In this document: in pieces, positions 3,973-18,212 of the stretch | Layout: every line of letters begins with the position of its first letter | How positions within the stretch are numbered: position 1 is the stretch's first letter | Origin: an uncultured virus (IMG/VR IMGVR_UViG_3300046532_001410) | Taxonomy: Duplodnaviria > Heunggongvirae > Uroviricota > Caudoviricetes | Length of the DNA: 20,000 bases | Direction: 5' to 3' (one strand) | IMG/VR virus record: IMGVR_UViG_3300046532_001410 | The notes under the pieces: model-generated | Database searches by the model: none | What the model saw: the letters and a program-made list of their open reading frames with translations, nothing else | Told to the model about the DNA's origin: nothing | Position numbers and translations under genes: made by a program

Positions 3973-6388
3973 TAAACAACTGAATCCACGATTGACTGGT
4001 TCATTTACTCTAAGTGGTTCACTTACGGGTACTGCAATTATTCCACCAGAAGCTATTGATGGACAACTTGGTATATTTGCTTCGACTGGTTCTTATCAAT
4101 CCACACATAATAGTTTAGTAATAACGGGTTCAATAACATCAAGTGCTGGATTTGAAGGTGATGGTAGTGGATTGACTGGAATATTACCAAGTGGTATAAA
4201 TGGACAACTTGGAATCTTTTCATCAACAGGTTCAATACAATCCACACACAATGATTTAGTTGTTACTGGTTCAATGAGTGTAAACACTGCAGTAACTACA
4301 TCAACTGCAATAACTACAAACAATATAACAACTGGGTATCCTACTTCTAATAATTGGGGTACAAGTTTAGATGGAAGTTACTTTAATAACTTTGATAATA
4401 CAACCCACGTGAGTGAAATATTAAGATTTATGGCTGGAATAATTAGTCATTCAATAGATACATCATCCCCAACACCAAACACAAAGACATTTGCAAGTAT
4501 AGATACAATTGAAAATAGTTTAGGTAACACAGATACTGTCGATGGATATTTACCACAGAGTTACGATAGTTCAAATGCAACTATGAAATATCTTTATACA
4601 AAAAGGTGGGTAATAGATGGTGGTACAATATTTAGTGGGGTTAGTTCATATCACGATAATGGTAATACATATAAAATAGATTTTGATTCTAATAGTGGTG
4701 GTTCAACGAGTATTAATTCCACATCCGATACCGAGTTATTTGGGTTGGGAAGTTTAACAAGTGGTGGAGTAACAGATTTTAAAGTTAGAGTATATGCAAC
4801 ACAATCGTTTAGTGATACGGGTAGTATTTCTACACCAACAAATACATCTAACAAATACACAACCCAATCAATATATGATATAACACAGGATTCATTTGGA
4901 ACAACAAGTGGTGTGACTTTAGCAAAAATTGATTCTGCTAATCCCGCAGTTATACCTGCTGCATATCAAGATGGTAAGTTTGTAGATGTAGGTGGTACAA
5001 GTATGAAAACTTTGTTGAGAAAATATCACGCAACTGAAACAAGTTTTACAAGTGTATCATCAAGTGGATACTATAATTTTTATGGGTTAAAGGTTGGAAT
5101 TGCAACTGGTTCAGGTGATTATACTTTCAAAGCTGGTTCATCTAAAAATAGATTTTGGGCACCAATAGACCAGATAAGTACAGATATCGGAACTAATTCA
5201 TTAACAATATCACATGCAACTCAGAGTTATGTAAGTGCTACATCAAGAAGTTTGAGTGGAGCACCATATTTAATTAACTCAACATATCATTTAAGTGCAT
5301 CGGTGAGTGGATTATTTAACCCAATGTACGCAGCATCAACCACGATAGTTGATGATAATATAAGTTCAGTAGGTGTTGGTTCAGTAAGTTCAACATCTGG
5401 TGTAGATGATTTAAGTACGAATGGGGGAACAATTCAAACTGCAAATGCAGTATTTAGTGATACAAGTCATTCACCAACAGTCAGAGGTACGAGTGTAGTA
5501 CCAACAAGAACAGATGTTTATAAACATAATTCAATTTATACTTTAGCTGGTTCTACAGGAGAAAATATAAATCAGACTGGTGTAAGTGATTCTACATTTA
5601 CAATCGGAGTTAGAGCAAGAAATCGTGCATCATCTCAATCTACATTAGCAACCTATACATACAATTACCACAACGCTGGAACATTCGGACAACCCGCAGG
5701 TAGTGGTTCTTTGGGAGTCTATCAGAGAGCACAAGGATATGATGGTGGAAGTTTGACTGGAACGAGTGAAACATTTACAGGAGAAGATTTTAGAATACAA
5801 TTATTAGATAATGTTACAGCATTTAATGGTACTGCTTGGGTTACTACATATGCAATCAATCAGTTGGGTTCTTATGATTTACAAGTGAAACCGGGATATT
5901 TGGTAGACCCAGGTGGAGATTATAGATATTGGTATTATGAGGATTATAATGACCATGGAACATACAAATATTATATACGAAGATTCCAAGATGGAAGTGC
6001 AAGAACAAGTATGACCATCAATACAGGTAAAACATTAGTGAATTGGAACTCTACATCAACAGGTACGGCAGTTGGATTGATATTAAAGAGTGGTACAAGT
6101 GCAGGAAGTAATACATCAATTACAAATTGTAGACTATATGACCCAAGTGCAACTACAAGTAACTTGATATCTGCAGGAGTATCAACGGATAACCATATTA
6201 ATCCATTCAGTTCTGATATAGATTTGTATGGGAACACTGGTGGTAGTATATCCACAACCACTTATACTGTCCCAATGAGAAATGCGGATGGAATGTACTT
6301 AGATTCAAGTGATAATGAACTTTATGTAATAGTTAGATATAAAGGTGATGAAACACCAGTAACTTCAATAGCAGTGACATTTAGTTAA
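3956..6388 (+). CDS. Large Ser/Thr/Gly-rich virion structural (fibre/collar-like) protein
   Basis: 810-aa ORF with beta-rich composition and an N-terminal tandem repeat; located in the structural cluster. Confidence 0.6.
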   Translation: MALIDSKQLNPRLTGSFTLSGSLTGTAIIPPEAIDGQLGIFASTGSYQSTHNSLVITGSITSSAGFEGDGSGLTGILPSGINGQLGIFSSTGSIQSTHNDLVVTGSMSVNTAVTTSTAITTNNITTGYPTSNNWGTSLDGSYFNNFDNTTHVSEILRFMAGIISHSIDTSSPTPNTKTFASIDTIENSLGNTDTVDGYLPQSYDSSNATMKYLYTKRWVIDGGTIFSGVSSYHDNGNTYKIDFDSNSGGSTSINSTSDTELFGLGSLTSGGVTDFKVRVYATQSFSDTGSISTPTNTSNKYTTQSIYDITQDSFGTTSGVTLAKIDSANPAVIPAAYQDGKFVDVGGTSMKTLLRKYHATETSFTSVSSSGYYNFYGLKVGIATGSGDYTFKAGSSKNRFWAPIDQISTDIGTNSLTISHATQSYVSATSRSLSGAPYLINSTYHLSASVSGLFNPMYAASTTIVDDNISSVGVGSVSSTSGVDDLSTNGGTIQTANAVFSDTSHSPTVRGTSVVPTRTDVYKHNSIYTLAGSTGENINQTGVSDSTFTIGVRARNRASSQSTLATYTYNYHNAGTFGQPAGSGSLGVYQRAQGYDGGSLTGTSETFTGEDFRIQLLDNVTAFNGTAWVTTYAINQLGSYDLQVKPGYLVDPGGDYRYWYYEDYNDHGTYKYYIRRFQDGSARTSMTINTGKTLVNWNSTSTGTAVGLILKSGTSAGSNTSITNCRLYDPSATTSNLISAGVSTDNHINPFSSDIDLYGNTGGSISTTTYTVPMRNADGMYLDSSDNELYVIVRYKGDETPVTSIAVTFS
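4040..4272 (+). repeat. Intragenic repeat, 141-nt period (GQLGIF.STGS.QSTHN.LV.TGS x2)
   Basis: GGACAACTTGG occurs at 4061 and 4202; the peptide repeat is visible in the translation. Confidence 0.85.
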
Positions 6389-9797: not shown

Positions 9798-10250
9798 ATG
9801 CCAAATTGGAAAAAAGTAGTAGTATCGGGTTCAAGTGCCCACCTAAATGAAGTAACTGCATCTGGAGTTATATGGACTGAATCTGATATAAGTGGTTCAA
9901 CCATACGAGCTAGTGGTGATATCATTGCTTACAATTCATCCGACAAAAATTTAAAAGATAATATAACATATATAGGTAACTCATTAGAGAAGTTGCAGAA
10001 AATTGGTGGTTATGAATTTGACTGGAATAAAAAACAAGATATTTATTCAGGTCACGATGTTGGAGTTATTGCTCAAGAAATTGAGGCCATTTTACCATCT
10101 GCAGTCAATGACCGAGATACTGGTTACAAGGGTGTTCAGTATCATAAGATAATTCCATTATTAGTTGAGGGAATCAAGGAATTAAACCAAAAGGTCGACC
10201 ATCTCCAAAATCTCTTGGAAGAAAAAAATAGCTCTATAGAAAAAATTTAA
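9798..10250 (+). CDS. Peptidase S74 intramolecular chaperone domain protein (minimal fibre)
   Basis: SSDKNLKDNI..I...LEKLQKI.GYEFDWN...DVGVIAQEIE.ILP.AV...Y.GV.Y.KIIPLLVEGIKEL plus a C-terminal coiled coil. Confidence 0.9.
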   Translation: MPNWKKVVVSGSSAHLNEVTASGVIWTESDISGSTIRASGDIIAYNSSDKNLKDNITYIGNSLEKLQKIGGYEFDWNKKQDIYSGHDVGVIAQEIEAILPSAVNDRDTGYKGVQYHKIIPLLVEGIKELNQKVDHLQNLLEEKNSSIEKI

Positions 10251-10738: not shown

Positions 10739-13078
10739 ATGGCCGAGAGAATAGTCTCACCAGGTGTATTTACAAGAGAAAAAGATTTATCTTTCCTACC
10801 ACAAGGTATTGCTGATATTGGAGCTGCAATCATTGGACCGACAGTTAAAGGTCCGGCGTTTGTACCAACACAAGTAACAAGTTTTTCGGAATTTGAAAAT
10901 ATCTTTGGTGGTTTAGATACTCGATTTTATGTACCATATACCGTCCAAGAATATATAAAGAATGCTCCGACCGTCACCATAGTTCGTGTATTAGGAATCG
11001 GTGGATATAAACATTCTGCAGTTAGAGTTAACTTATCAAGTTCACTCGGAACATATACTGCAGCAGTTTTAAAACCATCAAGACTAAGTAATACGTTGGA
11101 TTTAGGTGGTGTAACGAGTGCATCTTTAGCAGCGGGAGCTGATTTTGCTGGAGGCTCTATCACAATAGGTAGTGTATCTGCAAAAACAATAAGTTTTGAT
11201 ACAGGTTCGGATGATTACATCGAAAAAGTATTCGGAACAGACCCACAAACAACTAACACAAATGTATATGTGTATAAATCATTTAAAAAATTCCATTCAA
11301 GTAATGGATTTGATGCTAATGTAAGTATGAGTTTAGTCTCAGCTTCAACTGCAACTGGTGATGATTTTACACACGATTACAAAGTAGCAACAACACCTTA
11401 TATTGTATCACAATTAAGTGGTGGAGCTAGAAAAAATTTATTTAAAGTTAATACTCGTTCGCATGGTACGAATGTAAATGATGATTTCAAGATTGCAGTA
11501 GCAGATTTGACAACAGCAGCTAATGTACCAGGTTCTGATTATGGTTCTTTTGCACTCCGTGTATTAAGAAACAATCCAGGCGAAAACAATGATGGTGAAG
11601 TTCTTGAAGAGTTCACCAACCTTAGCTTTGACCCTGATTCAGTAAACTTTGTACCAAGAGCAATTGGTGATAGATATGTAACAATTGATACAGAAGGCAA
11701 ACTTACCTACAATGGTGATTGGCCAAATCAATCAGTTCATGTATATCTAAGTGATTACTCTTCAAATCTTGAGGGAATAGCATCAGATTTATTACCACAT
11801 GGATTTGCAGCAGCATCTAACCCAGTTCTCGGTACTACACAAATCCCAAGTGCAAGTTTTGTTTCACAACAAACTAACACACTCGGTGTATTTGACCAAA
11901 ATGTGTACTATGGTTGGGATTTCTCAAATACTGACAATAAAGCATTCACATCACCAATACCTGCAAGTGCTGGTACTGGTAATAATGCAGTATTCAGTTT
12001 AGAGAATATGTTAGGACACGCGGATGCAACTACAATAGGGGATACCCAAGAATCAGTAGCAGCAGAGGCAATTACATTAGCTCTTTCAGCGAAAGCTCAA
12101 AGAAAATTTATAATTCCTTTTCAGCATGGATTTGATGGAGATGACCCGACTGTATTGAAAGCAACTGGTAATGATATTTCTGCAACAAACCAACAAGGTT
12201 TAGATTGTAGTGGTACTACTGCTAGTGGTTCAATCGCGTACAAACGAGCAATTAATGCTGTATCAAACCCAGATGAGTTTGATATTAACTTACTTGTAAC
12301 ACCTGGTATTATACACGAATATCACAATTCCGTTTCAAACCACGCTATATCAAAAGTAGAAGCTCGTGCAGATGCTTTTTATGTAATGGATGGTTCAAGA
12401 TGGGGTAGAAGTGTAGCTAATTCAATCAATGATATTAAAACATTGGATACGAATTATGCTGGTGTATATTATCCTTGGGTCAAGATACTTGATTCAGTAA
12501 AGAATAAACCAATGTGGGTTCCGCCTTCCGTAGTGATACCTGGTGTGATTAGTTTCACAGATAGTGTAGCACACGAATGGTTTGCTCCTGCTGGTTTAAA
12601 CAGAGGTGGATTGAGTTCAGTATTGGAAGCAAAAACACGACTAACACATACAGAACGAGATGATTTGTATGAAGGTCGTTTGAATCCAATCGCTTCATTC
12701 CCAGGTCAAGGTGTTGTAGTTTTCGGACAGAAAACACTACAAGGTAAACCAAGTGCACTTGATAGAATCAATGTACGAAGATTGTTAATCAGACTTCGTA
12801 AGTTCATTGCTTCTTCATCAAGATACTTAGTATTTGAACAAAACACATCCGCAACAAGAAATAGATTCTTAGGAATCGTTAATCCTTTCTTAGCGAGTGT
12901 TCAATCAAATAGTGGTTTAAGTGCATTTAAAGTAGTAATGGATGATTCTAACAACACACCAGATGTTGTTGATAGAAACCAGTTAGTAGGACAGATATTT
13001 ATCCAACCTACACGAACTGCTGAGTTCATTGTACTTGACTTTGTAATTCAACCAACAGGTGCAGCATTTCCTGAATAA
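10739..13078 (+). CDS. Contractile tail sheath protein
   Basis: N-terminal SPGVFTREKDLS; C-terminal YYPWV, VPPS, WFAPAGLNRG, FGQKTLQ..SALDRINVRRL, FEQN and IQPTRTAEFI, all hallmark sheath motifs. Confidence 0.97.
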   Translation: MAERIVSPGVFTREKDLSFLPQGIADIGAAIIGPTVKGPAFVPTQVTSFSEFENIFGGLDTRFYVPYTVQEYIKNAPTVTIVRVLGIGGYKHSAVRVNLSSSLGTYTAAVLKPSRLSNTLDLGGVTSASLAAGADFAGGSITIGSVSAKTISFDTGSDDYIEKVFGTDPQTTNTNVYVYKSFKKFHSSNGFDANVSMSLVSASTATGDDFTHDYKVATTPYIVSQLSGGARKNLFKVNTRSHGTNVNDDFKIAVADLTTAANVPGSDYGSFALRVLRNNPGENNDGEVLEEFTNLSFDPDSVNFVPRAIGDRYVTIDTEGKLTYNGDWPNQSVHVYLSDYSSNLEGIASDLLPHGFAAASNPVLGTTQIPSASFVSQQTNTLGVFDQNVYYGWDFSNTDNKAFTSPIPASAGTGNNAVFSLENMLGHADATTIGDTQESVAAEAITLALSAKAQRKFIIPFQHGFDGDDPTVLKATGNDISATNQQGLDCSGTTASGSIAYKRAINAVSNPDEFDINLLVTPGIIHEYHNSVSNHAISKVEARADAFYVMDGSRWGRSVANSINDIKTLDTNYAGVYYPWVKILDSVKNKPMWVPPSVVIPGVISFTDSVAHEWFAPAGLNRGGLSSVLEAKTRLTHTERDDLYEGRLNPIASFPGQGVVVFGQKTLQGKPSALDRINVRRLLIRLRKFIASSSRYLVFEQNTSATRNRFLGIVNPFLASVQSNSGLSAFKVVMDDSNNTPDVVDRNQLVGQIFIQPTRTAEFIVLDFVIQPTGAAFPE

Positions 13079-13103
13079 GTTTAACTTATAAAATAGCTTA
13101 TAC

Positions 13104-13144
13104 GAAAAACCCACAATCTTAAATGACTGTGGGTTTTTCTTTTT
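13104..13144. terminator. Bidirectional rho-independent terminator
   Basis: Perfect 12-bp inverted repeat GAAAAACCCACA (13104-13115)/TGTGGGTTTTTC (13128-13139), giving a T-tract on each strand; sits between convergent units. Confidence 0.85.
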
Positions 13145-13275
13145 AGGAGGTCACAATGAATAAATTTTGAGAGTTTAACCACCTAACTCACAAGGGTTGT
13201 TTCTAATTTCGTGAAACACTACATAACCCAAACCGATTCCAAATTATCGTAGTATATCGGCAACCCACGAATCTA
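13145..13275 (-). ncRNA. Candidate multi-pseudoknot non-coding RNA
   Basis: Five complementary segment pairs in the order a-b-c-d-c'-d'-a'-b'-e-e'. G-U pairs favour the minus strand. The 3' tail contains ACCUCCU. Confidence 0.55.
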
Positions 13276-13281
13276 ATATAA

Positions 13282-13530
13282 TTACATTAGTTCTAACATA
13301 GCAAAAGGAACATTATACAACCTACCATTCATATCAACAATAGCCTTTTTAATATTCATCTTAGTGATGACACCAGGAGTTTTCTTTGTCTTTTGAACAA
13401 CATAAACCTTAGCTCCAACACATAACGATGATTTTCCCAACATAGTCTTACAATCATTAATATAGGAAGATAATTCATTCAGTTCTGACAGTGAATTTAA
13501 TCCCCTAATTTGTTGTTTTATCTTAATCAT
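13282..13530 (-). CDS. Small protein: N-terminal helix plus SH3/KOW/Tudor-like barrel
   Basis: 82 aa; pattern LCVGAKVYV...TPGVITKMNIKKAIVDMNGRLYNVPFAML; AAGGA RBS and its own promoter. Confidence 0.7.
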   Translation of the reverse strand: MIKIKQQIRGLNSLSELNELSSYINDCKTMLGKSSLCVGAKVYVVQKTKKTPGVITKMNIKKAIVDMNGRLYNVPFAMLELM

Positions 13531-13550
13531 ATTTTATTTCCTTTATTTGT

Positions 13551-13586
13551 TACCTTAATATAAGGCCATTTCGCCATATAAGTCAA
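13551..13586 (-). promoter_or_regulatory. Sigma70-type promoter P1 (TTGACT-N18-TATATT)
   Basis: -35 at 13581-13586, -10 at 13557-13562, A-rich upstream tract; ~25 nt before the 82-aa ORF. Confidence 0.75.
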
Positions 13587-13594
13587 GTGTTTTT

Positions 13595-13684
13595 TTATTT
13601 TTTTTTCGCACAATACCAATTACAATATTTATTACCCTTATACACTACTACTGCTTTTATTTTTTTACATTTATTACAACTCAT
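13595..13684 (-). CDS. 29-aa four-Cys zinc-finger microprotein MSCNKCKKIKAVVVYKGNKYCNWYCAKKK
   Basis: Translated by hand; not in the ORF track. CxxC...CxxxC, GGAAG RBS-like sequence, directly downstream of promoter P2. Confidence 0.65.
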   Translation of the reverse strand: MSCNKCKKIKAVVVYKGNKYCNWYCAKKK

Positions 13685-13704
13685 TATTTATCTTCCATTT
13701 CTTA

Positions 13705-13740
13705 TACCTTAATATACAACATAAATACTATACAAGTCAA
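13705..13740 (-). promoter_or_regulatory. Sigma70-type promoter P2 (TTGACT-N18-TATATT)
   Basis: -35 at 13735-13740, -10 at 13711-13716; same hexamers, spacing and downstream AAGGTA as P1. Confidence 0.75.
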
Positions 13741-13813
13741 GGATTATTTTCAAAAAACTTCAATAAAACTTCAAAGAATGATGTAAGAAATTACACATTT
13801 TTTAAGAACCTGA

Positions 13814-13821
13814 TATTTATT
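13814..13821 (+). promoter_or_regulatory. Putative late promoter motif TATTTATT (context CTGATATTTATTA)
   Basis: Upstream of the tube gene, which needs its own promoter after the sheath terminator; identical 13-mer at 15631. Confidence 0.6.
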
Positions 13822-13862
13822 ATCGAAGAAAAAAACAGCATTAATTTAAACGGAGATAGGCA

Positions 13863-14354
13863 ATGGCCGACATACTAACAACAGATGAAATCTTTTTTAA
13901 AGCATTTGAACCGAAAACAAAGAATAGGTTCATTATGTATATTGATGGGATACCATCTTATTTCGTAAAGACAGCTAATAGACCACAGATTACTTTTGAA
14001 GAAATCGAACTTAACCATATCAATGTAAAACGATATGTTAAGGGTAAAGGTACGTGGGAGCCATTAGAGATAACTCTATATGACCCAATCGTTCCAAGTG
14101 GTGCACAAGCAGTAATGGAATGGGTAAGATTACATCACGAATCAGTAACAGGTCGCGATGGATATGCAGACTTTTATAAAAAAGAAGTTCGTTTCAATCT
14201 TTTAGGACCAGTCGGTGATAAGGTTGAAGAATGGGTACTACATGGTGCTTTCATTCAAACTGCAAACTTCAATGATTTAGATTTTGCTAATGGAACAGAT
14301 GTTGCTGATATATCGTTAACACTACGTTACGATTACGCAGTACTCTCGTTCTAA
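13863..14354 (+). CDS. Tail tube protein (T4 gp19-like)
   Basis: 163 aa; FEPKTKNRF, VKGKGTWEPLEITLYDPI, DFYKK, VEEWVLHGAF, LTLRYDYA; follows the sheath. Confidence 0.92.
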   Translation: MADILTTDEIFFKAFEPKTKNRFIMYIDGIPSYFVKTANRPQITFEEIELNHINVKRYVKGKGTWEPLEITLYDPIVPSGAQAVMEWVRLHHESVTGRDGYADFYKKEVRFNLLGPVGDKVEEWVLHGAFIQTANFNDLDFANGTDVADISLTLRYDYAVLSF

Positions 14355-14670: not shown

Positions 14671-15447
14671 ATGGCTGATAATCAGTTCACGTTTCCTACT
14701 GAAGTTCTATCATTACCTTCAAAGGGTAAACTTTATTCAGAAGATAGTCCATTAAGTAGCGGAACAATCGAAGTCAAGTATATGACTGCAAAAGAGGAAG
14801 ATATCTTAACTTCCACAAATCTAATAGAAAAGGGATTAGTAATTGATAAATTATTATCAAGTGTTATTGTCGACCCGAAAGTTAAATTAGATGATTTATT
14901 AATTGGTGATAAAAATGCACTAATGTTAGGTACTCGTGTATTAGGATATGGCCCTAATTATGATGTACAAATAACTGACCCAGATACAGGTTTAGAAGTT
15001 GAACATACTTTTGATTTAACAAAATTATCAACAAAAGAAGTAGATGAAAAATTATTCGAATCCGGTAAAAATAAATTCAAATTTACATTACCACACTCTA
15101 AACGAGTTATTGAATTTAAACTAATGACTCATAAAGATGAGCGAGAAGTTGAAAAGGAAATAGAGGGTTATAAGAAAATAACTCAAGCAACGGGTGTTTC
15201 AAATGAGTTAACTACACGATTGAAGAAACAAATCATTTCAATAGATGGTGAAGTCGATAGATTAAAGGTTAATGATTTTGTAGAGAATCAGTTTCTTGCT
15301 AGGGATACACGAGAGTTTCGTAAGTATTTAATAAAAGTAACTCCAGATATTACATTTGAAGCAGAATACCTTAGTCAAATAGGAGAATCCCATATGGTAA
15401 ATATACCAGTAGGGGTACGATTTTTTTGGCCTGAATCCCAAGTATAA
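14671..15447 (+). CDS. Tail assembly chaperone/baseplate hub assembly protein (T4 gp26-like)
   Basis: LPSKGKLY, VKYMTAKEEDILT, LLIGDKNALMLGTRVLGYG, terminal FFWP; between tube and tape measure. Confidence 0.8.
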   Translation: MADNQFTFPTEVLSLPSKGKLYSEDSPLSSGTIEVKYMTAKEEDILTSTNLIEKGLVIDKLLSSVIVDPKVKLDDLLIGDKNALMLGTRVLGYGPNYDVQITDPDTGLEVEHTFDLTKLSTKEVDEKLFESGKNKFKFTLPHSKRVIEFKLMTHKDEREVEKEIEGYKKITQATGVSNELTTRLKKQIISIDGEVDRLKVNDFVENQFLARDTREFRKYLIKVTPDITFEAEYLSQIGESHMVNIPVGVRFFWPESQV

Positions 15448-15878: not shown

Positions 15879-18212
15879 GTGGCAATTAATCCAGAAACAA
15901 AACAAGCTGTTTACTTAGCAAATCAAGAAAAAATAATTAAACTCACCGAAAAAGAGGCTGAGATTAAGAAAGAGATTGCCGCTGAAACAAAGAAAATTAA
16001 TGAGTTACAGAGTAAAGGTGAAAAAATTAGTACAAATGAGTTAAATAAACTTAAACTAAAACTAAAAATAAATCAAGAAAATAGCAAGGTAACCCAGAAG
16101 ATTGGTGTTATCCAATCCGAAATTGTCGGCGATATGGATAAAGAACAATTACTTGCGTTCGATATCAAAAAGAACTTAGCTGCTCAAAAAAACATCGAAG
16201 AAACCATTTTGAAGTTAAAAAGTACAGGTGTTAACATGAGTAGTAAACAACTTAGTTCATTAACTAAGCGAAAAGCTACAATGGATAAAATGTTAAATGT
16301 TCAAGTAGATGCTGCATCATCGGCTCAAGCATCCAATCAAATACAAGAAAAATTATTAGGTACACTTGGTATGAGTGTATCAGCATTAGGAGCAATGAAA
16401 GACCAAGCAGTATTATTTGGAAGGGCATTACTTACTAATCCGATTATTGCGGTAGGAGCAGCAATTGCTGCAATTGTTATGTACACTATCGATATGGCTA
16501 AGAATACAATGACTCTCTCAAAAGAGTTGGGTATATCAGCATCACAGGCATCAAAACTTAATAAAGAAATGGGATTTCTTGAACGAAAATTCTTAGGATT
16601 TTTAGGACAAGATGCAAATGCCATTACAAAAGCAATCGCAGATAATTTTGGAGATTTAAATAGATTTACTGAAATGAGTGTTAAGGATATTGCATTCTTT
16701 AGTATGGGATTGGGTACTTCTGGTGAGAATGTTGTTAAATTAGCAAAAGGAATGGAATCGGTATTACCGAGTATTTCTAATGGTGCTGAAGCAATGGATA
16801 AAATGCAATACTATGCTGGGTTAGCAAAAGAAAATGGTGTAGGGACTGGAGTAGTACTTGAAGATTTAGCTAGCAATACAGAATTATTTGCAGAGTTCGG
16901 AAAAGATGGCGGAGATAATTTAGCAAAAGCAGCAGTTCAAGCAAGAAAGTTAGGATTAAGTTTAGAAACAACTGGTAAGATTGCTAATTCATTATTAGAT
17001 TTTGAATCAAGTATAGAAAAGGAAATGGAAGCTTCCCTAATGATAGGGAAACAATTAAATTATAATAAAGCAAGAGAATTAGCACTTGAGGGTGATTTAG
17101 CAGGTGCAGCAGCAGATGTAGTAAGACAGATTGGTGGTAAGGCCGAACTTAGTAAAATGAATGTTCTTCAGAGGAGAGCATTAGCAGATTCTATTGGTGT
17201 ATCAGTAGAGGAAATGAGTAAATTAGCAAGTGGTAAGTTAGATATCAAGAGTGATAATGTAAGCCCAATTGATGCTCAAACTGAAGCAACTAAGATGTTG
17301 CAACAAACTACTGAAGATTTGAGAATGACTCTACTCAAGATTATTACACCACTTGCAATATTAGCAGATGTAATAACTGCTCTTGCTAAAAAAATGGGTA
17401 TTAAATTACCAAAAATTATGGGTGGACCTGGTAAAGTACCAAAGACACCAAATGTTAAAGGACCAAAAACTGGTGGTCTGGATAAAGCAAAAGCGATAAA
17501 AGATTCAGTTATTAAAACCGAAACTGGTAGATTTAAACCACAAGGAGCAAAAGGGCCTGGTTTTTTAAAAGAAGCTGATGCTCTTAAAAAGGTAGATGAT
17601 TTAGCTAAGACTGCAGGTGATGATTTACTTAAAGTTGGTGGTAAAGCTAGTAAATTTGTTAAAAGGGTAGCAGTACCACTCGGAGTAATATTAGATGCAG
17701 TAGAAATTGGGACTGTAATGATGGATAAAACTAAATCCAAAACTGATGTTGCTAAGACGGTAACTGAAAAAGCAGGTGGTTGGGCTGGAGCCGCAGGTGG
17801 AGCTTCTGCAGGAGCTGGACTTGGTGCAGCATTAGGAAGTGTTGTTCCAATATTAGGAACTGCAGTTGGTGGAGCAATTGGTGGTTTAGTTGGTGGTATT
17901 GGTGGATACTTTGCTGGAGAGTGGGCTACTGGAGAAGTTCTTGATAACACAGTCGGAATGTCAAGTGGTGGAGAATCCGATAAAGGTGTGAGTAAAGTAT
18001 TAGAAGAATTTTCTGATTTAGATAAAGAAGAAAGACAAGAACTTTATACTGCAATGGCTGGTAGTCAAGCACAAATTCAAGATTTCCTTAAAGCAAATAG
18101 TGGAATGTTTTCTGGGTTCACCGAAATGGGCGAAATGGTACAGATAATGCAAGAAGTTGCTAAAAATACTGGTAAGAGTGTAACCGAAATTGCTAATATG
18201 ACAAGAGAATAA
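15879..18212 (+). CDS. Tape measure protein
   Basis: 777 aa, helical and Ala/Lys/Glu-rich; LLDFESSIEKEMEASLMIGKQLN..KARELALEGDL; hydrophobic and Gly-zipper segments; GTG start; canonical position. Confidence 0.85.
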   Translation: MAINPETKQAVYLANQEKIIKLTEKEAEIKKEIAAETKKINELQSKGEKISTNELNKLKLKLKINQENSKVTQKIGVIQSEIVGDMDKEQLLAFDIKKNLAAQKNIEETILKLKSTGVNMSSKQLSSLTKRKATMDKMLNVQVDAASSAQASNQIQEKLLGTLGMSVSALGAMKDQAVLFGRALLTNPIIAVGAAIAAIVMYTIDMAKNTMTLSKELGISASQASKLNKEMGFLERKFLGFLGQDANAITKAIADNFGDLNRFTEMSVKDIAFFSMGLGTSGENVVKLAKGMESVLPSISNGAEAMDKMQYYAGLAKENGVGTGVVLEDLASNTELFAEFGKDGGDNLAKAAVQARKLGLSLETTGKIANSLLDFESSIEKEMEASLMIGKQLNYNKARELALEGDLAGAAADVVRQIGGKAELSKMNVLQRRALADSIGVSVEEMSKLASGKLDIKSDNVSPIDAQTEATKMLQQTTEDLRMTLLKIITPLAILADVITALAKKMGIKLPKIMGGPGKVPKTPNVKGPKTGGLDKAKAIKDSVIKTETGRFKPQGAKGPGFLKEADALKKVDDLAKTAGDDLLKVGGKASKFVKRVAVPLGVILDAVEIGTVMMDKTKSKTDVAKTVTEKAGGWAGAAGGASAGAGLGAALGSVVPILGTAVGGAIGGLVGGIGGYFAGEWATGEVLDNTVGMSSGGESDKGVSKVLEEFSDLDKEERQELYTAMAGSQAQIQDFLKANSGMFSGFTEMGEMVQIMQEVAKNTGKSVTEIANMTRE

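What the first reader, a model, noticed from the sequence alone, without database searches (positions are those of the whole stretch)
13104..13740. Self-contained antisense island between sheath and tube: twin promoters, Zn microprotein, SH3/Tudor-like protein and pseudoknot RNA
Seen: sheath and tube, normally adjacent, are split by a minus-strand unit reading P2, 29-aa Cys4 ORF, P1, 82-aa ORF, ~110-nt highly paired region, terminator. Established: TTGACT/TATATT is near the sigma70 consensus, so host RNA polymerase could fire it early, unlike the surrounding late genes. Inference: a compact early-expressed protein-plus-ncRNA module for host takeover, anti-defence, toxin-antitoxin-like function or translational control. 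I do not recognise it as a named system.
Basis: partly seen in the sequence, partly recalled or inferred. Interest (0 to 1): 0.85.

Follow-up and report, generated by a model that had tools for sequence, protein, structure and literature searches.

The report
Early-gene cassette slot with pseudoknot RNA
The gap between the tail sheath and tail tube genes of this marine phage is a swappable slot for small early genes, and it ends in a conserved folded RNA whose first part resembles a pseudoknot of phage tmRNAs.

Summary
The window is a marine myovirus tail module. Sheath and tube lie 45-94 nt apart in the nearest isolates, but here a 784-nt minus-strand unit separates them.

The two promoters (TTGACT-N18-TATATTAAGGTA, each 56 nt from ATG) belong to a family-wide motif. 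It occurs 65 times in 49 related loci, always on the gene strand, against 2 expected.

Both ORFs are real genes:
- The 82-aa protein has dN/dS 0.08-0.23, 356 relative clusters and a helical hairpin plus SH3/Tudor/KOW-like barrel.
- The 29-aa protein keeps its CxxC...CxxxC cysteines in all 8 versions.

The downstream RNA starts with an H-type pseudoknot supported by covariation. That pseudoknot matches PK4 of phage-encoded tmRNAs and has no Rfam match.

The unit is not a co-inherited module:
- Of 67 distinct sheath-adjacent copies of the RNA, 11 have the 82-aa gene upstream.
- Of 80 loci with the 82-aa gene, 14 lie between sheath and tube.
- Two complete phage genomes with the gene show no pseudoknot match.

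Best reading: a moron-like, hyperplastic early-gene slot capped by a conserved structured 3'UTR and a bidirectional terminator. The RNA's function is inferred, not shown.

The parts
10739..13078 (+). Tail sheath gene (779 aa), the left border of the slot.
   Evidence: phrog_23 at 2.2e-70; PF04984 at 2.4e-11.
13105..13144 (.). Bidirectional intrinsic terminator: A-run, 9-bp stem (13110-13118 with 13125-13133), 6-nt loop, T-runs. It is shared by the sheath gene and the minus-strand unit.
   Evidence: Folds at -19.8 kcal/mol (+, z -6.05) and -23.1 kcal/mol (-, z -9.01). Stem changes on both sides occur in relatives (helix 6).
13145..13166 (-). Pyrimidine-rich single-stranded linker of the RNA (CAUUGUGACCUCCU). 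On the plus strand it is the complement of AGGAGG-N5-ATG.
   Evidence: Read from the sequence. The stretch varies but stays CU-rich in the 50 aligned relatives.
13167..13229 (-). Two hairpins of the RNA. Hairpin B, 13229-13194, has GGGUU/AACCC enclosing GUUUC/GAAAC. Hairpin C, 13193-13167, is UUGUGAGUU/AACUCUCAA.
   Evidence: Hairpin B is nearly invariant, so it is uninformative. In 16 of 50 relatives hairpin C is replaced by a different hairpin. That hairpin shows a G-C to A-U double change in L200, L215 and L220.
13229..13271 (-). H-type pseudoknot module. S1 pairs 13269-13265 with 13252-13248. S2 pairs 13261-13256 with 13237-13232. It starts 11 nt after the stop codon of the 82-aa ORF.
   Evidence: Covariation over 63 sequences: 94.2% of cells paired against 76.4% in shuffles (0 of 500 reach it) and 35-47% when slid. 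S2 has 5 of 6 pairs with changes on both sides. Model R1 scores 44 bits here. The same module is PK4 of phage tmRNAs.
13275..13304 (-). Weak promoter-like site (TTGCTA-N18-TATATT) overlapping the 3' end of the 82-aa ORF. It could start the RNA on its own.
   Evidence: 9 of 12 matches. Only 1 of 50 relatives has a full consensus promoter at this place.
13282..13530 (-). 82-aa gene: two N-terminal helices plus a five-stranded SH3/Tudor/KOW-like barrel with an invariant VVQKTK.T motif.
   Evidence: dN/dS 0.08-0.23. 356 clusters at E<=1e-3. Model pLDDT 88.1. Z 8.8-7.9 to Tudor, PWWP and KOW barrels. Metatranscriptome contigs cover 13266-13519 and 13406-13564 at 100% identity.
13557..13586 (-). Promoter P1 (TTGACT-N18-TATATT), followed by AAGGTA. 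The ATG lies 26 nt after the -10 hexamer.
13595..13684 (-). 29-aa Cys4 gene (CxxC-N14-CxxxC).
   Evidence: 8 distinct versions including the window's, with all four Cys invariant. Lengths are 28-33 aa, or 64-66 aa with an added tail. dN/dS 0.15-0.82.
13711..13740 (-). Promoter P2 (TTGACT-N18-TATATT), followed by AAGGTA. The ATG lies 26 nt after the -10 hexamer.
13863..14354 (+). Tail tube gene (163 aa), the right border of the slot.
   Evidence: phrog_4542 at 7.1e-29.

Best explanation
The sheath-tube gap of this marine myovirus lineage is a hyperplastic, moron-like slot for small early genes.

Host RNA polymerase would start at the sigma-70-like promoters P2 and P1. These are copies of the promoter used throughout the early regions of related phages. 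Transcription then runs through the Cys4 gene and the 82-aa gene and ends at a terminator shared with the convergent sheath gene.

The protein-coding content of the slot is exchanged between phages, probably by recombination between the repeated promoter copies and the conserved ends. The constant part is the structured 3'UTR: a tmRNA-PK4-type pseudoknot, two hairpins, a CU-rich linker and the terminator. It most likely stabilises and insulates whatever early mRNA lies upstream, and it may yield a stable 3'-derived RNA.

The 82-aa protein is a small nucleic-acid-binding barrel protein that acts independently of this RNA.

Shown here: the anatomy, conservation, covariation, purifying selection, independent assortment of the parts, and presence of the 82-aa gene in RNA libraries.

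Inferred: early timing, the recombination route, the role of the RNA, and nucleic-acid binding by the 82-aa protein.
For: Insertion:
- The sheath-tube gap is 45 nt in Flavobacterium phage immuto and 94 nt in Microcystis phage Mel-JY01, with the same gene order. Here it is 784 nt.

Variable content. P marks a promoter copy in each architecture below:
- Window: P, 29-aa ORF, P, 82-aa ORF.
- L005: P, 64-aa ORF, P, 82-aa ORF.
- L007: P, 114-aa ORF, P, 81-aa ORF, 74-aa ORF, P, 82-aa ORF.
- L004: P, 81-aa ORF, P, 82-aa ORF.
- L029: P, 74-aa ORF, P, 139-aa ORF, 82-aa ORF, P, RNA.

Mosaic pattern against L005:
- Sheath 97% and tube 100% amino-acid identity.
- Non-coding flanks 94-100% nucleotide identity.
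- The 82-aa protein only 84% identical, with dS 0.44.

Promoters:
- The strict motif occurs 65 times in 49 distinct loci (318 kb), all 65 on the gene strand. Shuffles give 2.15 +/- 1.42.
- 51 of 65 are followed by an ATG ORF of 20 aa or more within 15-60 nt. The commonest spacing is 26 nt, in 21 cases.

RNA:
- 67 of 105 distinct loci carrying the pseudoknot are convergent with a sheath 3' end. Only 11 of the 67 have the 82-aa gene upstream.
- In 47 of 50 distinct upstream contexts no promoter scoring 10 of 12 or better precedes the RNA. In the contexts read by eye it starts within about 15 nt of the upstream stop codon. This is what a 3'UTR looks like.
- Covariation supports the pseudoknot.

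Transcription:
- RNA-library contigs cover the 82-aa gene as separate pieces.
- Sheath contigs stop at 13074 or 13094, and tube contigs start at 13738-13867. None bridges the gap.

Independence of the parts.
Against: - No strand-specific or end-mapped RNA data exist. The RNA runs were kept only as contigs, which show neither strand nor ends, and DNA carry-over cannot be excluded.
- L029/L117 has a full consensus promoter directly before the RNA. The window and the L005 type have a 10/12 site's scoring (TTTGCT-N19-TATATT; one search scores the window's site as TTGCTA-N18-TATATT, 9/12). The RNA may therefore be an independent gene in some phages.
- In 9 loci outside the sheath context a pseudoknot lies 178-280 nt downstream of the 82-aa gene. 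Some linkage between the two therefore exists.
- No experiment bears on stabilisation. Hairpin B is invariant, so its pairing is untested.
- RNAalifold prefers to pair the first GGGUU with AACCC, which competes with the pseudoknot stem S1.
Confidence: 0.68

Rival explanations
1. The RNA is an independent trans-acting small RNA. It would be made from its own promoter or cut from the 3'UTR. Its CU-rich, anti-Shine-Dalgarno stretch (CAUUGUGACCUCCU in the window) would pair with ribosome-binding sites of host or phage mRNAs.
For: - The layout is that of a typical sRNA: a structured 5' domain, a single-stranded pyrimidine-rich stretch and an intrinsic terminator.
- L029/L117 has a consensus promoter 15 nt before the pseudoknot.
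- There is a weak resemblance to csRNA, which carries an anti-SD motif: 22.5 bits against a gathering score of 57.
Against: - The linker sequence is not conserved among the 50 relatives; only its pyrimidine bias is.
- 47 of 50 upstream contexts lack a good promoter.
- No target was sought or found.
- In the window the anti-SD stretch is simply the complement of a plus-strand AGGAGG-N5-ATG.
- This rival overlaps with the best explanation, which allows a 3'-derived RNA.
Confidence: 0.2
2. One reading: the Cys4 protein, the 82-aa protein and the RNA form one functional module. Examples would be a protein-RNA complex for host takeover, anti-defence or toxin-antitoxin-like control.
For: - A pseudoknot lies within 300 nt downstream of the 82-aa gene in 14 sheath-context loci and 9 other loci.
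- 12 of 31 members of the 82-aa family give consistent sub-threshold matches to PF24203, the phage ProQ C-terminal-like domain: 12-17 bits against a cut-off of 27. ProQ is an RNA chaperone; that statement rests on recall.
Against: - 56 of 67 sheath-adjacent RNAs lack the 82-aa gene.
- 48 of 80 loci with the 82-aa gene have no pseudoknot within the fetched flanks.
- HTVC008M and Melnitz, both complete genomes with the gene, give no match.
- The Cys4 ORF is found in only 14 of 80 loci.
- PADLOC gave 0 families.
Confidence: 0.1
3. The conserved element acts at the DNA level only. It would serve as a recombination anchor or a transcription insulator at the end of the slot, and its RNA structure would be irrelevant.
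For: - A 46-nt core is 96-98% identical between phages whose sheath proteins are only 60-68% identical. This fits recent exchange.
- The element marks one boundary of the variable region.
Against: - Changes on both sides keep S2 paired in 5 of 6 pairs and keep the terminal S1 pair (GC 19, UA 13, CG 8, AU 6 of 63). That pattern is expected for selection on RNA or single-strand structure.
- G-U pairs on the minus strand become A-C mismatches on the plus strand.
- The same module is part of tmRNAs, which are functional RNAs.
Confidence: 0.08

Closest known systems
Hyperplastic regions with PeSL cassettes (promoter-early stem-loop) of T4-type phages. Sources: Arbiol et al. 2010, PMC2839356, and Comeau et al. 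2014, PMC4122927; abstracts read.
   Same: - Small ORFan genes each have their own strong sigma-70-like promoter copy.
- Content differs between close relatives by insertion, deletion and replacement bounded by the repeated regulatory sequence.
- The region lies between blocks of conserved core genes.
   Different: - P1 and P2 have no stem-loop beside them, so they are promoter cassettes rather than composite promoter-terminator units.
- The slot sits inside the tail module, between sheath and tube.
- The tail gene order is that of immuto and Mel-JY01, not T4.
- Mini-circles and recombination were not tested.
Morons of lambdoid and other phages: an autonomous promoter-gene-terminator unit inserted between two late genes that are adjacent in relatives. 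The concept is recalled, not read here.
   Same: - A unit with its own promoters and terminator is inserted between two genes that are adjacent in the nearest isolates.
- It is transcribed independently of the late operon.
   Different: - It lies antisense to the late genes.
- It holds several promoters and exchangeable genes.
- It ends in a conserved structured RNA.
- This is a lytic-type marine myovirus, not a prophage.
Pseudoknot PK4 of tmRNA (Rfam RF00023), as found in phage-encoded tmRNAs of marine myoviruses.
   Same: The same sequence and structure module (NGUGG-GUU-stem-ACUACN-AUUUGGA-stem) sits directly before the ACUAAGC helix-2 strand of tmRNAs in L155, L161, L176 and L203.
   Different: - The window's RNA has no tRNA-like domain and no tag reading frame. 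ARAGORN found 0 genes and Rfam gave no tmRNA match at E<=10.
- The module stands alone, followed by two hairpins and a terminator, as a 3'UTR.
Small SH3-like barrels that bind nucleic acids: Tudor, PWWP and KOW domains, the N-terminal domain of Hpy99I, and the barrel repeats of viral SprT-like proteins.
   Same: - Five-stranded barrel in residues 36-82: Z 8.8 to the PHF19 Tudor, 8.2 to Hpy99I (30% identity), 8.1 to 6kco PWWP with ssDNA (30% identity), 8.0-7.9 to KOW domains.
- BFVD hits to SprT-like proteins of giant viruses, up to 43% identity over 51 columns, E 1.2e-4.
   Different: - It stands alone at 82 aa with its own N-terminal helical hairpin and an invariant QKTK.T loop.
- No Pfam or PHROG family reaches threshold.
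- Z values near 8 are common for small barrels (note).

Membership tests
PeSL cassette (T4-type hyperplastic regions) | Strong sigma-70-like early promoter, repeated in the genome. | tested here: met
   Two copies with 10 of 12 hexamer matches and identical extended sequence. 65 co-oriented copies in 49 related loci against 2.15 expected. Activity was not measured.
PeSL cassette (T4-type hyperplastic regions) | A stem-loop terminator joined to the promoter. | tested here: not met
   No short-range inverted repeat lies next to P1 or P2. The stop codon of the 29-aa ORF is 8 nt (13594-13587) from the -35 hexamer of P1, and the intervening bases are A-rich.
PeSL cassette (T4-type hyperplastic regions) | Flanks ORFan genes whose presence differs between close relatives. 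| tested here: met
   Five different slot architectures occur among phages with sheath identity of 60-97%. None of the ORFs has a Pfam or PADLOC family below E 0.01.
tmRNA (RF00023) | tRNA-like domain (acceptor stem and T-arm). | tested here: not met
   ARAGORN found 0 genes in the window. No tmRNA or tRNA match at E<=10 in 12900-14000.
tmRNA (RF00023) | Tag-peptide reading frame. | tested here: not met
   ARAGORN reported no tag. Indels of 1 and 2 nt among relatives rule out a conserved frame.
tmRNA (RF00023) | A pseudoknot of the PK4 type. | tested here: met
   The module aligns with PK4 of four Rfam-confirmed phage tmRNAs (82.5-109.8 bits against a gathering score of 47).
Intrinsic (Rho-independent) terminator, bidirectional | A GC-rich hairpin flanked by an A-run and a T-run. 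| tested here: met
   -19.8 and -23.1 kcal/mol on the two strands, z -6.05 and -9.01. Termination itself was not measured.
Phage ProQ C-terminal-like domain (PF24203) | A match above Pfam's gathering score. | tested here: inconclusive
   12 of 31 family members match in one register (protein 35-78 to profile 5-50 of 112), but at 12-17 bits against a cut-off of 27. The window's own protein does not match.
SH3-like small beta-barrel (Tudor / KOW / PWWP class) | A five-stranded barrel fold. | tested here: met
   Model pLDDT 88.1, strands at 41-46, 49-58, 62-67, 70-75 and 79-81. Z 8.8-7.0 over 46-48 residues at rmsd 1.3-2.0. The fold alone does not give a function.
Zinc ribbon or Cys4 microprotein | Four conserved Cys in a CxxC...CxxxC pattern. 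| tested here: met
   Cys 3, 6, 21 and 25 are invariant in 8 distinct versions. Metal binding cannot be tested with these tools.
Known anti-phage defence or toxin-antitoxin proteins (PADLOC) | A match to any PADLOC model. | tested here: not met
   0 families at E<=0.1 for the two window proteins and six alternative cassette proteins.

The most novel reading that the evidence does not exclude
The pseudoknot RNA is a stand-alone functional RNA taken over from tmRNA. In this reading, phages of this lineage copied the PK4 module out of their tmRNA gene. They placed it at the 3' end of early transcripts and beside tRNA genes. There it would act as an exonuclease-resistant cap, or as a decoy for a tmRNA-binding host factor such as ribosomal protein S1, SmpB or RNase R. 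The 82-aa ProQ-CTD/Tudor-like protein, which lies next to such modules in 23 loci, would be a phage RNA-binding partner in part of the lineage.
Probability: 0.15. Interest if true: 0.75.

Novelty: new variant of a known kind. Interest (0 to 1): 0.5.

Why it matters
The cassette slot itself is ordinary phage genome plasticity, though it is a clean example inside a tail module of uncultured marine myoviruses.

The RNA is the new part. It is a covariation-supported pseudoknot motif with no Rfam match. It was found in more than 119 viral contig stretches and in only 1 convincing place among 185,579 prokaryote species genomes. It occurs in three settings: inside phage tmRNAs, alone beside tRNA genes, and as the constant end of the sheath-tube slot.

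This points to modular reuse of a tmRNA pseudoknot by phages. It also gives a defined RNA of about 40 nt whose effect on mRNA stability or on trans-translation factors can be tested directly.

The 82-aa family (356 clusters) is a widespread, strongly conserved early protein with no assigned function.

Tried and rejected
- **Whole genome:** none is held for this window. Genome-wide promoter and pseudoknot counts for this phage itself were therefore impossible. The nearest held record, G001, is a 25-kb fragment.
- **tRNA or tmRNA reading of the RNA:** rejected.
- **Sequence search of solved structures with the 82-aa profile:** only noise, best E 0.32 to beta-arrestin. Foldseek against the PDB gave 0 matches at E<=0.001.
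- **Single-sequence folding as evidence for the pseudoknot and hairpins:** not significant.
- **RNAalifold on the 50-sequence alignment:** it gave a partly different nested structure with a covariation term of only -0.8 kcal/mol. The alignment mixes two non-homologous versions of hairpin C, so the counts for helix 5 (74% paired) understate it.
- **Metatranscriptome contigs:** none covers 13147-13223. X15 record 7 reaches only to 13266, which covers just the first few bases of the RNA. Contigs drop small structured RNAs, so this says nothing about whether the RNA is made.
- **Host inference from the pseudoknot:** 32 pattern matches in prokaryote genomes. Only L282, a 4.7-kb contig, scored like a true copy at 53.1 bits. 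Eight others scored 18-28 bits; of the two shown as alignments, one (L255) had a broken stem. No host can be named.
- **tmRNA search in G001, G002 and G004:** no match, but all three are fragments at 12-63% completeness.
- **Earlier findings of this scan:** nothing was on record by place or by sequence.
- **Programmed stop-codon readthrough driven by the pseudoknot:** rejected, because a second in-frame stop follows two codons after the TAA.
- **Not used:** Complex prediction, which does not take RNA.
Full report
**Setting.** The window is a plus-strand tail module of a myovirus.
- Sheath, 10739..13078: phrog_23 at 2.2e-70.
- Tube, 13863..14354: phrog_4542 at 7.1e-29.
- A baseplate-hub-like gene, 14671..15447, and a tape-measure-like gene, 15879..18212.

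The nearest isolates by DNA are Microcystis phage Mel-JY01 and Flavobacterium phage immuto, at 68-69% identity over the sheath and tube parts only. They share the gene order sheath, tube, hub, small ORF, tape measure. Their sheath-tube gaps are 94 nt and 45 nt. Here the gap is 784 nt, so it is an insertion.

**The observation.**
- The two promoter sites score 10 of 12 hexamer matches with an 18-nt spacer.
- They share an extended sequence, TTGACT-N18-TATATTAAGGTA. It has 2 exact matches in the window against 0.10 expected, and 0 of 200 shuffles reach the observed 3 matches within three mismatches.
- Each lies 56 nt from TTGACT to ATG, and the two units are in register 154 nt apart.
- Generic sigma-70-like sites are not enriched in the window: 75 found against 94.6 +/- 10.4.
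- The terminator at 13105-13144 folds on both strands, at -19.8 and -23.1 kcal/mol with z -6.05 and -9.01. It can therefore end both the sheath transcript and the minus-strand unit.
- The paired region is not exceptional on energy once the terminator is removed: z 0.01 and -0.94 for the parts, against -4.27 for the whole.

**The promoters are a family-wide early-type promoter.** I examined 49 distinct IMG/VR loci that encode relatives of the 82-aa protein, 318 kb in all.
- The strict motif TTGAC[AT]-N17/18-TATA[AT]T occurs 65 times, all on the strand of the gene. Block shuffles give 2.15 +/- 1.42 for both strands together.
- 51 of the 65 are followed within 15-60 nt by an ATG ORF of at least 20 aa. 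The commonest distance from the -10 hexamer to ATG is 26 nt (21 cases), the same as in the window.
- Only 14 of the 49 relatives of the 82-aa gene have the strict motif within 70 nt upstream.
- One copy also lies upstream of the HTVC008M homolog.

Promoter activity and early timing are inferred from sequence. The Melnitz paper likewise treated predicted sigma-70 promoters as early promoters (PMC9004378, methods passage read).

**Both ORFs are genes.**
- The 82-aa protein has no Pfam or PHROG family.
- It has 182 confirmed relatives in IMG/VR, of which 80 loci were kept.
- A profile search found 356 clusters at E<=1e-3, 87 at 1e-10 and 4 at 1e-30.
- It has homologs in Pelagibacter phage HTVC008M (64% identity) and in the four Methylophilales phage Melnitz records (55%).
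- dN/dS against ten relatives is 0.08-0.23.
- G39, V42, V45-K49, T51, G53, Y72, V74, P75, M78 and E80 are invariant in 31 sequences.
- The 29-aa ORF has seven further distinct versions. Five are 28-33 aa long, and two are 64-66 aa with an added tail carrying an HDFDxAMNG motif. All four Cys are invariant, and dN/dS is 0.15-0.82 over few sites.
- It is therefore not a truncated pseudogene, as I first suspected from L005.

**What the 82-aa protein looks like.**
- The AlphaFold model (pLDDT 88.1, pTM 0.59) has two N-terminal helices and a five-stranded barrel in residues 36-82.
- The barrel matches Tudor, PWWP and KOW domains: Z 8.8 to PHF19, 8.2 to the Hpy99I N-terminal domain at 30% identity, 8.1 to 6kco 'PWWP in complex with ssDNA' at 30% identity, and 8.0-7.9 to DSIF and NusG KOW domains. 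The tool's own note says Z values near 8 are common for such small folds.
- Among viral models the best named hits are SprT-like proteins of giant viruses, up to 43% identity over 51 columns at E 1.2e-4.
- Distant sequence relatives include proteins with SprT-like matches. P0129 scores 29.3 bits, above the 25.6 cut-off. P0087, P0143 and P0146 fall below it.
- 12 of 31 family members give sub-threshold matches in one register to the phage ProQ C-terminal-like domain.
- I read this as a small nucleic-acid-binding protein. Whether it binds DNA or RNA is open.

**The RNA.** Five slot variants share a conserved core directly after the last stop codon. A strict pattern scan found 53 stretches, 37 of them true-looking.

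The core is an H-type pseudoknot with this layout:
- S1 is NGUGG paired with CUACN.
- Loop 1 is GUU.
- S2 is a 6-bp stem of free sequence.
- Loop 3 contains AUUUGGA.

Results on 63 distinct copies:
- 94.2% of cells pair, against 76.4 +/- 1.0% in shuffles (0 of 500 reach it) and 35-47% when partners are slid.
- 5 of 6 S2 pairs change on both sides.
- Four S1 pairs are fixed by the search pattern and so are uninformative.
- The fifth, unconstrained S1 pair is GC 19, UA 13, CG 8, AU 6, GU 2 and unpaired 15. This supports the pseudoknot.

Relatedness of the sequences inflates the shuffle control, as the tool warns. The slide control does not suffer from this.

Hairpin B is invariant. Hairpin C exists in two unrelated sequence versions, one with a G-C to A-U double change. 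Indels of 1 and 2 nt argue against coding.

**Identity of the pseudoknot.**
- In other contigs the same module lies just before the ACUAAGC strand and T-arm of phage-encoded tmRNAs.
- Rfam RF00023 matched 4 of 12 sources at 82.5-109.8 bits. ARAGORN found tmRNAs in 5 of 23 loci. The module is therefore PK4 of those tmRNAs.
- It also stands alone beside tRNA genes and near manA RNAs.
- The window's RNA is not a tmRNA and matches no Rfam family; the best hit is 24.6 bits against a gathering score of 50.
- In 185,579 prokaryote species genomes the pattern hit 32 places. Only one, a 4.7-kb contig, scored as a true copy.
- Marine phage tmRNAs are known (PMC9004378, passages read). I found no description of this module outside tmRNA, but I ran no literature search aimed at it.

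**Linkage test.**
- Of 105 distinct pseudoknot-bearing loci, 67 have a convergent sheath 3' end next to the RNA. The 105 include some chance pattern hits. Of the 67, 11 have the 82-aa gene directly upstream and 56 do not.
- Other last genes include a 139-aa family and an 81-aa family.
- In 47 of 50 distinct upstream contexts no promoter scoring 10 of 12 or better precedes the RNA. One (L117) has a perfect promoter. The window and the L005 type score 10/12's scoring.
- Conversely, only 14 of 80 loci with the 82-aa gene have sheath and tube flanks.
- A covariance model of the pseudoknot found 34 hits in the window plus 82 loci, all on the strand of the 82-aa gene.
  - Besides the sheath context, 9 loci have a pseudoknot 178-280 nt downstream: L017-L020, L027, L028, L034, L051 and L052.
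  - One locus (L041) has it at 515 nt. Eight have it 1.4-2.1 kb away. 48 have none within the fetched flanks.
  - In three of the nearby cases read (L018, L051, L027), a promoter or promoter-like TTGACT site and other structured RNA lie in between.
- The complete genomes of HTVC008M and Melnitz give no match.
- The parts therefore assort independently, with some tendency for the 82-aa gene to sit at the edge of RNA-gene clusters.

**Mosaic evolution.** Against the closest relative type (L005):
- The sheath is 97% and the tube 100% identical in protein.
- The RNA is 97.9%, the terminator 100%, the P1 region 93.8% and the P2-to-tube spacer 96.1% identical in DNA.
- The 82-aa protein is only 84% identical, with dS 0.44.
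- The Cys4 ORF is 66% identical, and it is 64 aa there against 29 aa here.

This is the pattern expected if cassettes are exchanged by recombination in the conserved non-coding flanks. PeSL-mediated shuffling in T4-type phages works this way (abstracts of PMC2839356 and PMC4122927). Here the promoter copies lack the stem-loop half of a PeSL.

**Expression.** Six metatranscriptomic runs hold 31-54% of the sampled words of 12800-14100. Four were laid; all are kept as contigs only.
- The 82-aa gene is covered by separate contigs at 100% identity: 13266-13519 in X15 and 13406-13564 in X16. A variant contig in X18 continues into the upstream gene of the L005 type.
- Sheath contigs stop at 13074 (X15, X17) or 13094 (X16, X18).
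- Tube contigs start at 13738, 13842, 13851 or 13867. No listed contig bridges sheath, island and tube.
- This fits separate transcripts rather than DNA carry-over, but contigs give neither strand nor true ends.
- The X16 contig runs about 14 nt beyond the predicted P1 start. This would fit read-through from P2.

**Verdict.** The anatomy is confirmed. The reading 'early-expressed unit with host-type promoters' is well supported by comparison. The reading 'self-contained protein-RNA module' is not supported.

The most interesting element is the conserved tmRNA-PK4-like pseudoknot RNA that caps the slot. Its role as a 3' stabiliser and insulator, or as a source of a stable RNA, is my inference.

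Noticed in passing
window 13145-13170 (+): Directly after the sheath terminator the plus strand carries a perfect AGGAGG, 5 nt, then ATG AAT AAA TTT TGA (MNKF-stop). Relatives that keep the CCUCCU stretch keep a strong SD plus an ORF of 3-9 codons: MDKF in L004, MNK in L006, MNIEKILRV in L177. Either a mini-ORF or the antisense RNA stretch could be the selected feature.
   Followed up: partly
L027 2620-2790, L051 4400-4560, L140, L174, L190, L245: Outside the sheath context the pseudoknot occurs in tandem with a second, related pseudoknot (CGUGG-UUU-stem-CUACG-AUAAUUUGA-stem). An element of about 60 nt follows, closed by a GGGGAAU/AUUCCCC stem. It looks like a tRNA-like mini-helix, but ARAGORN does not call it.
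   Followed up: no
L113 874-1072, L090 819-1019, L137 808-980: manA RNA motifs (RF01745; 62.7 and 59.3 bits against a gathering score of 55.2; the third is cut off) lie a few hundred nt from pseudoknot modules. This suggests clusters of structured RNA genes in these phages.
   Followed up: no
L005 3732-3926, L024 3716-3916, L027 about 1730-1889, L041, L046, L047: The Cys4 unit and an HDF[DN]EAMNG motif occur in both orders. They form one 64-66-aa ORF (Cys4 first). Alternatively, an upstream ORF ends in the motif and a separate, overlapping 28-33-aa Cys4 ORF follows.
   Followed up: partly
L282 398-437 (4.7-kb contig in a MAG labelled Nitrosopelagicus): This is the only convincing pseudoknot copy (53.1 bits) among 185,579 prokaryote species genomes. 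A short contig like this is probably phage DNA binned into the MAG.
   Followed up: no
window 9798-10250 (+): A 150-aa ORF consists essentially of the C-terminal intramolecular chaperone domain of tail fibres and endosialidases (PF13884 at 2.9e-15; phrog_8215 at 6.2e-35). It stands as a separate small gene.
   Followed up: no
window 13738-13867 (+): RNA-library contigs for the tube gene begin at 13738, 13842, 13851 (with adapter sequence at the end) and 13867. This hints at a tube mRNA 5' end close to the ATG at 13863 and at a late promoter inside the P2-to-tube spacer.
   Followed up: no
L001 4929-5446 (HTVC008M gp047-gp046): The HTVC008M homolog of the 82-aa gene is itself the first gene of a two-gene unit antisense to its neighbours, next to baseplate wedge genes. 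A copy of the promoter motif lies upstream at 4860-4890.
   Followed up: partly
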